A DNA stretch of 64,000 nt from a virus, in the IMG/VR virus record IMGVR_UViG_3300027749_000073, positions 25,503-89,502 of that record; one strand, given 5' to 3'. Below, a report on this DNA, generated by a model with database tools, continues. The letters are not shown here.

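What the first reader, a model, noticed from the sequence alone, without database searches (positions are those of the whole stretch)
26809..43172. Candidate new system: Cys-rich virion tip proteins beside a phage-encoded sulfation/glycosylation/carbamoylation cluster
Seen: two fibre-tip proteins with 8-9% Cys are followed, after one small gene, by ~16 genes that sit inside the structural region and carry late TAAATA boxes. They include five sulfotransferase-fold proteins, an APS kinase, GT9-like transferase, NodU carbamoyltransferase, SGNH protein, three 2OG-Fe(II) oxygenases, methyltransferase, ferritin-like di-iron protein, GATase and a GmhB homologue. Established: APS kinase makes PAPS for sulfotransferases; NodU/CmcH enzymes O-carbamoylate hydroxyls; GT9 and GmhB belong to ADP-heptose chemistry; sulfo-, carbamoyl-, methyl- and acyl-transfer together is the logic of Nod-factor glycan decoration. 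Inference: the phage builds a decorated glycan or other modification on its own virion proteins (hydroxylated residues or Cys) or on the host surface, for receptor mimicry, stability or superinfection exclusion. Alternative: DNA hypermodification, since phage NodU-family enzymes can carbamoylate hydroxymethylcytosine, but no base hydroxymethylase is present in this window.
Basis: partly seen in the sequence, partly recalled or inferred. Interest (0 to 1): 0.85.

Follow-up and report, generated by a model that had tools for sequence, protein, structure and literature searches.

The report, continued
Noticed in passing
window 42600-43172 (-); L113 7215-7712: The GmhB-like gene beside the carbamoyltransferase has lost both catalytic Asp motifs throughout the window's clade, yet it stays conserved. 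Relative G005 also carries a live paralogue (GIDRDGVI, GDKISD) inside a heptose operon about 10 kb downstream.
   Followed up: yes
window 39563-40340: The di-iron gene gives the deepest contig in an RNA library (128.9, against 17.4 and below for its neighbours). Contigs of two runs of one study begin at 39589 and 39591, about 20 nt after an ATAAATA box. This may be a strong late transcript start, but depth and contig ends are weak evidence.
   Followed up: partly
window 26400-30779 versus 30779-43246: In another lake sample, a contig is about 98.7% identical over the enzyme genes but strongly diverged over cysA, cysB and p251a. The tip genes, and the putative chaperone with them, are swapped or evolve fast between near-identical strains.
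   Followed up: partly
window 42066-42614 and 40380-40808: The amidotransferase's best NCBIfam match is gamma-glutamyl-CDP-amidate hydrolase (Campylobacter MeOPN pathway). The kinase's best match is the PRK05541 adenylyl-sulfate-kinase subfamily. Together with the ST-fold proteins that lack the usual Lys, this hints at a PAPS-analogue donor rather than PAPS.
   Followed up: partly
window 35393-36322, residues 9-13: The N-terminal loop GGAGR is invariant in 35 homologues (G9, G10, G12, R13). I confirmed only the invariance.
   Followed up: partly
L056 9568-10912 (372-kb viral contig with terminal repeats): A jumbo-phage contig has an apsk142-like kinase (46% identity) directly upstream of a GT309 relative. 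It has no carbamoyltransferase and no Cys-rich ORF nearby.
   Followed up: no
phage records H54-H85: About 78-kb Vibrio phages (31 records) and one Aeromonas phage encode distant relatives of GT309, at 25-28% identity over 76-83% of its length. Their gene context was not examined.
   Followed up: no
L109-L112: The methyltransferase-st198-di-iron-amidotransferase-st208-st213 block is a mobile cassette. It also occurs in other viral contigs, next to PhoH, clamp-loader, lysozyme, DnaJ and ClpB genes in the one contig scanned (L110).
   Followed up: yes
window 38806-39660 (-): The 284-aa methyltransferase ORF starts with TTG and a hydrophobic 39-residue extension that overlaps the di-iron gene's start. 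Homologues are 244 or 171 aa long, so the real start is probably the ATG at 39543.
   Followed up: partly
window 19163-26440: The 2425-aa fibre protein contains a run of near-identical repeats of about 41 aa (AAYSTDGITW...). Other first-stage notes also mention this. I did not examine it.
   Followed up: no
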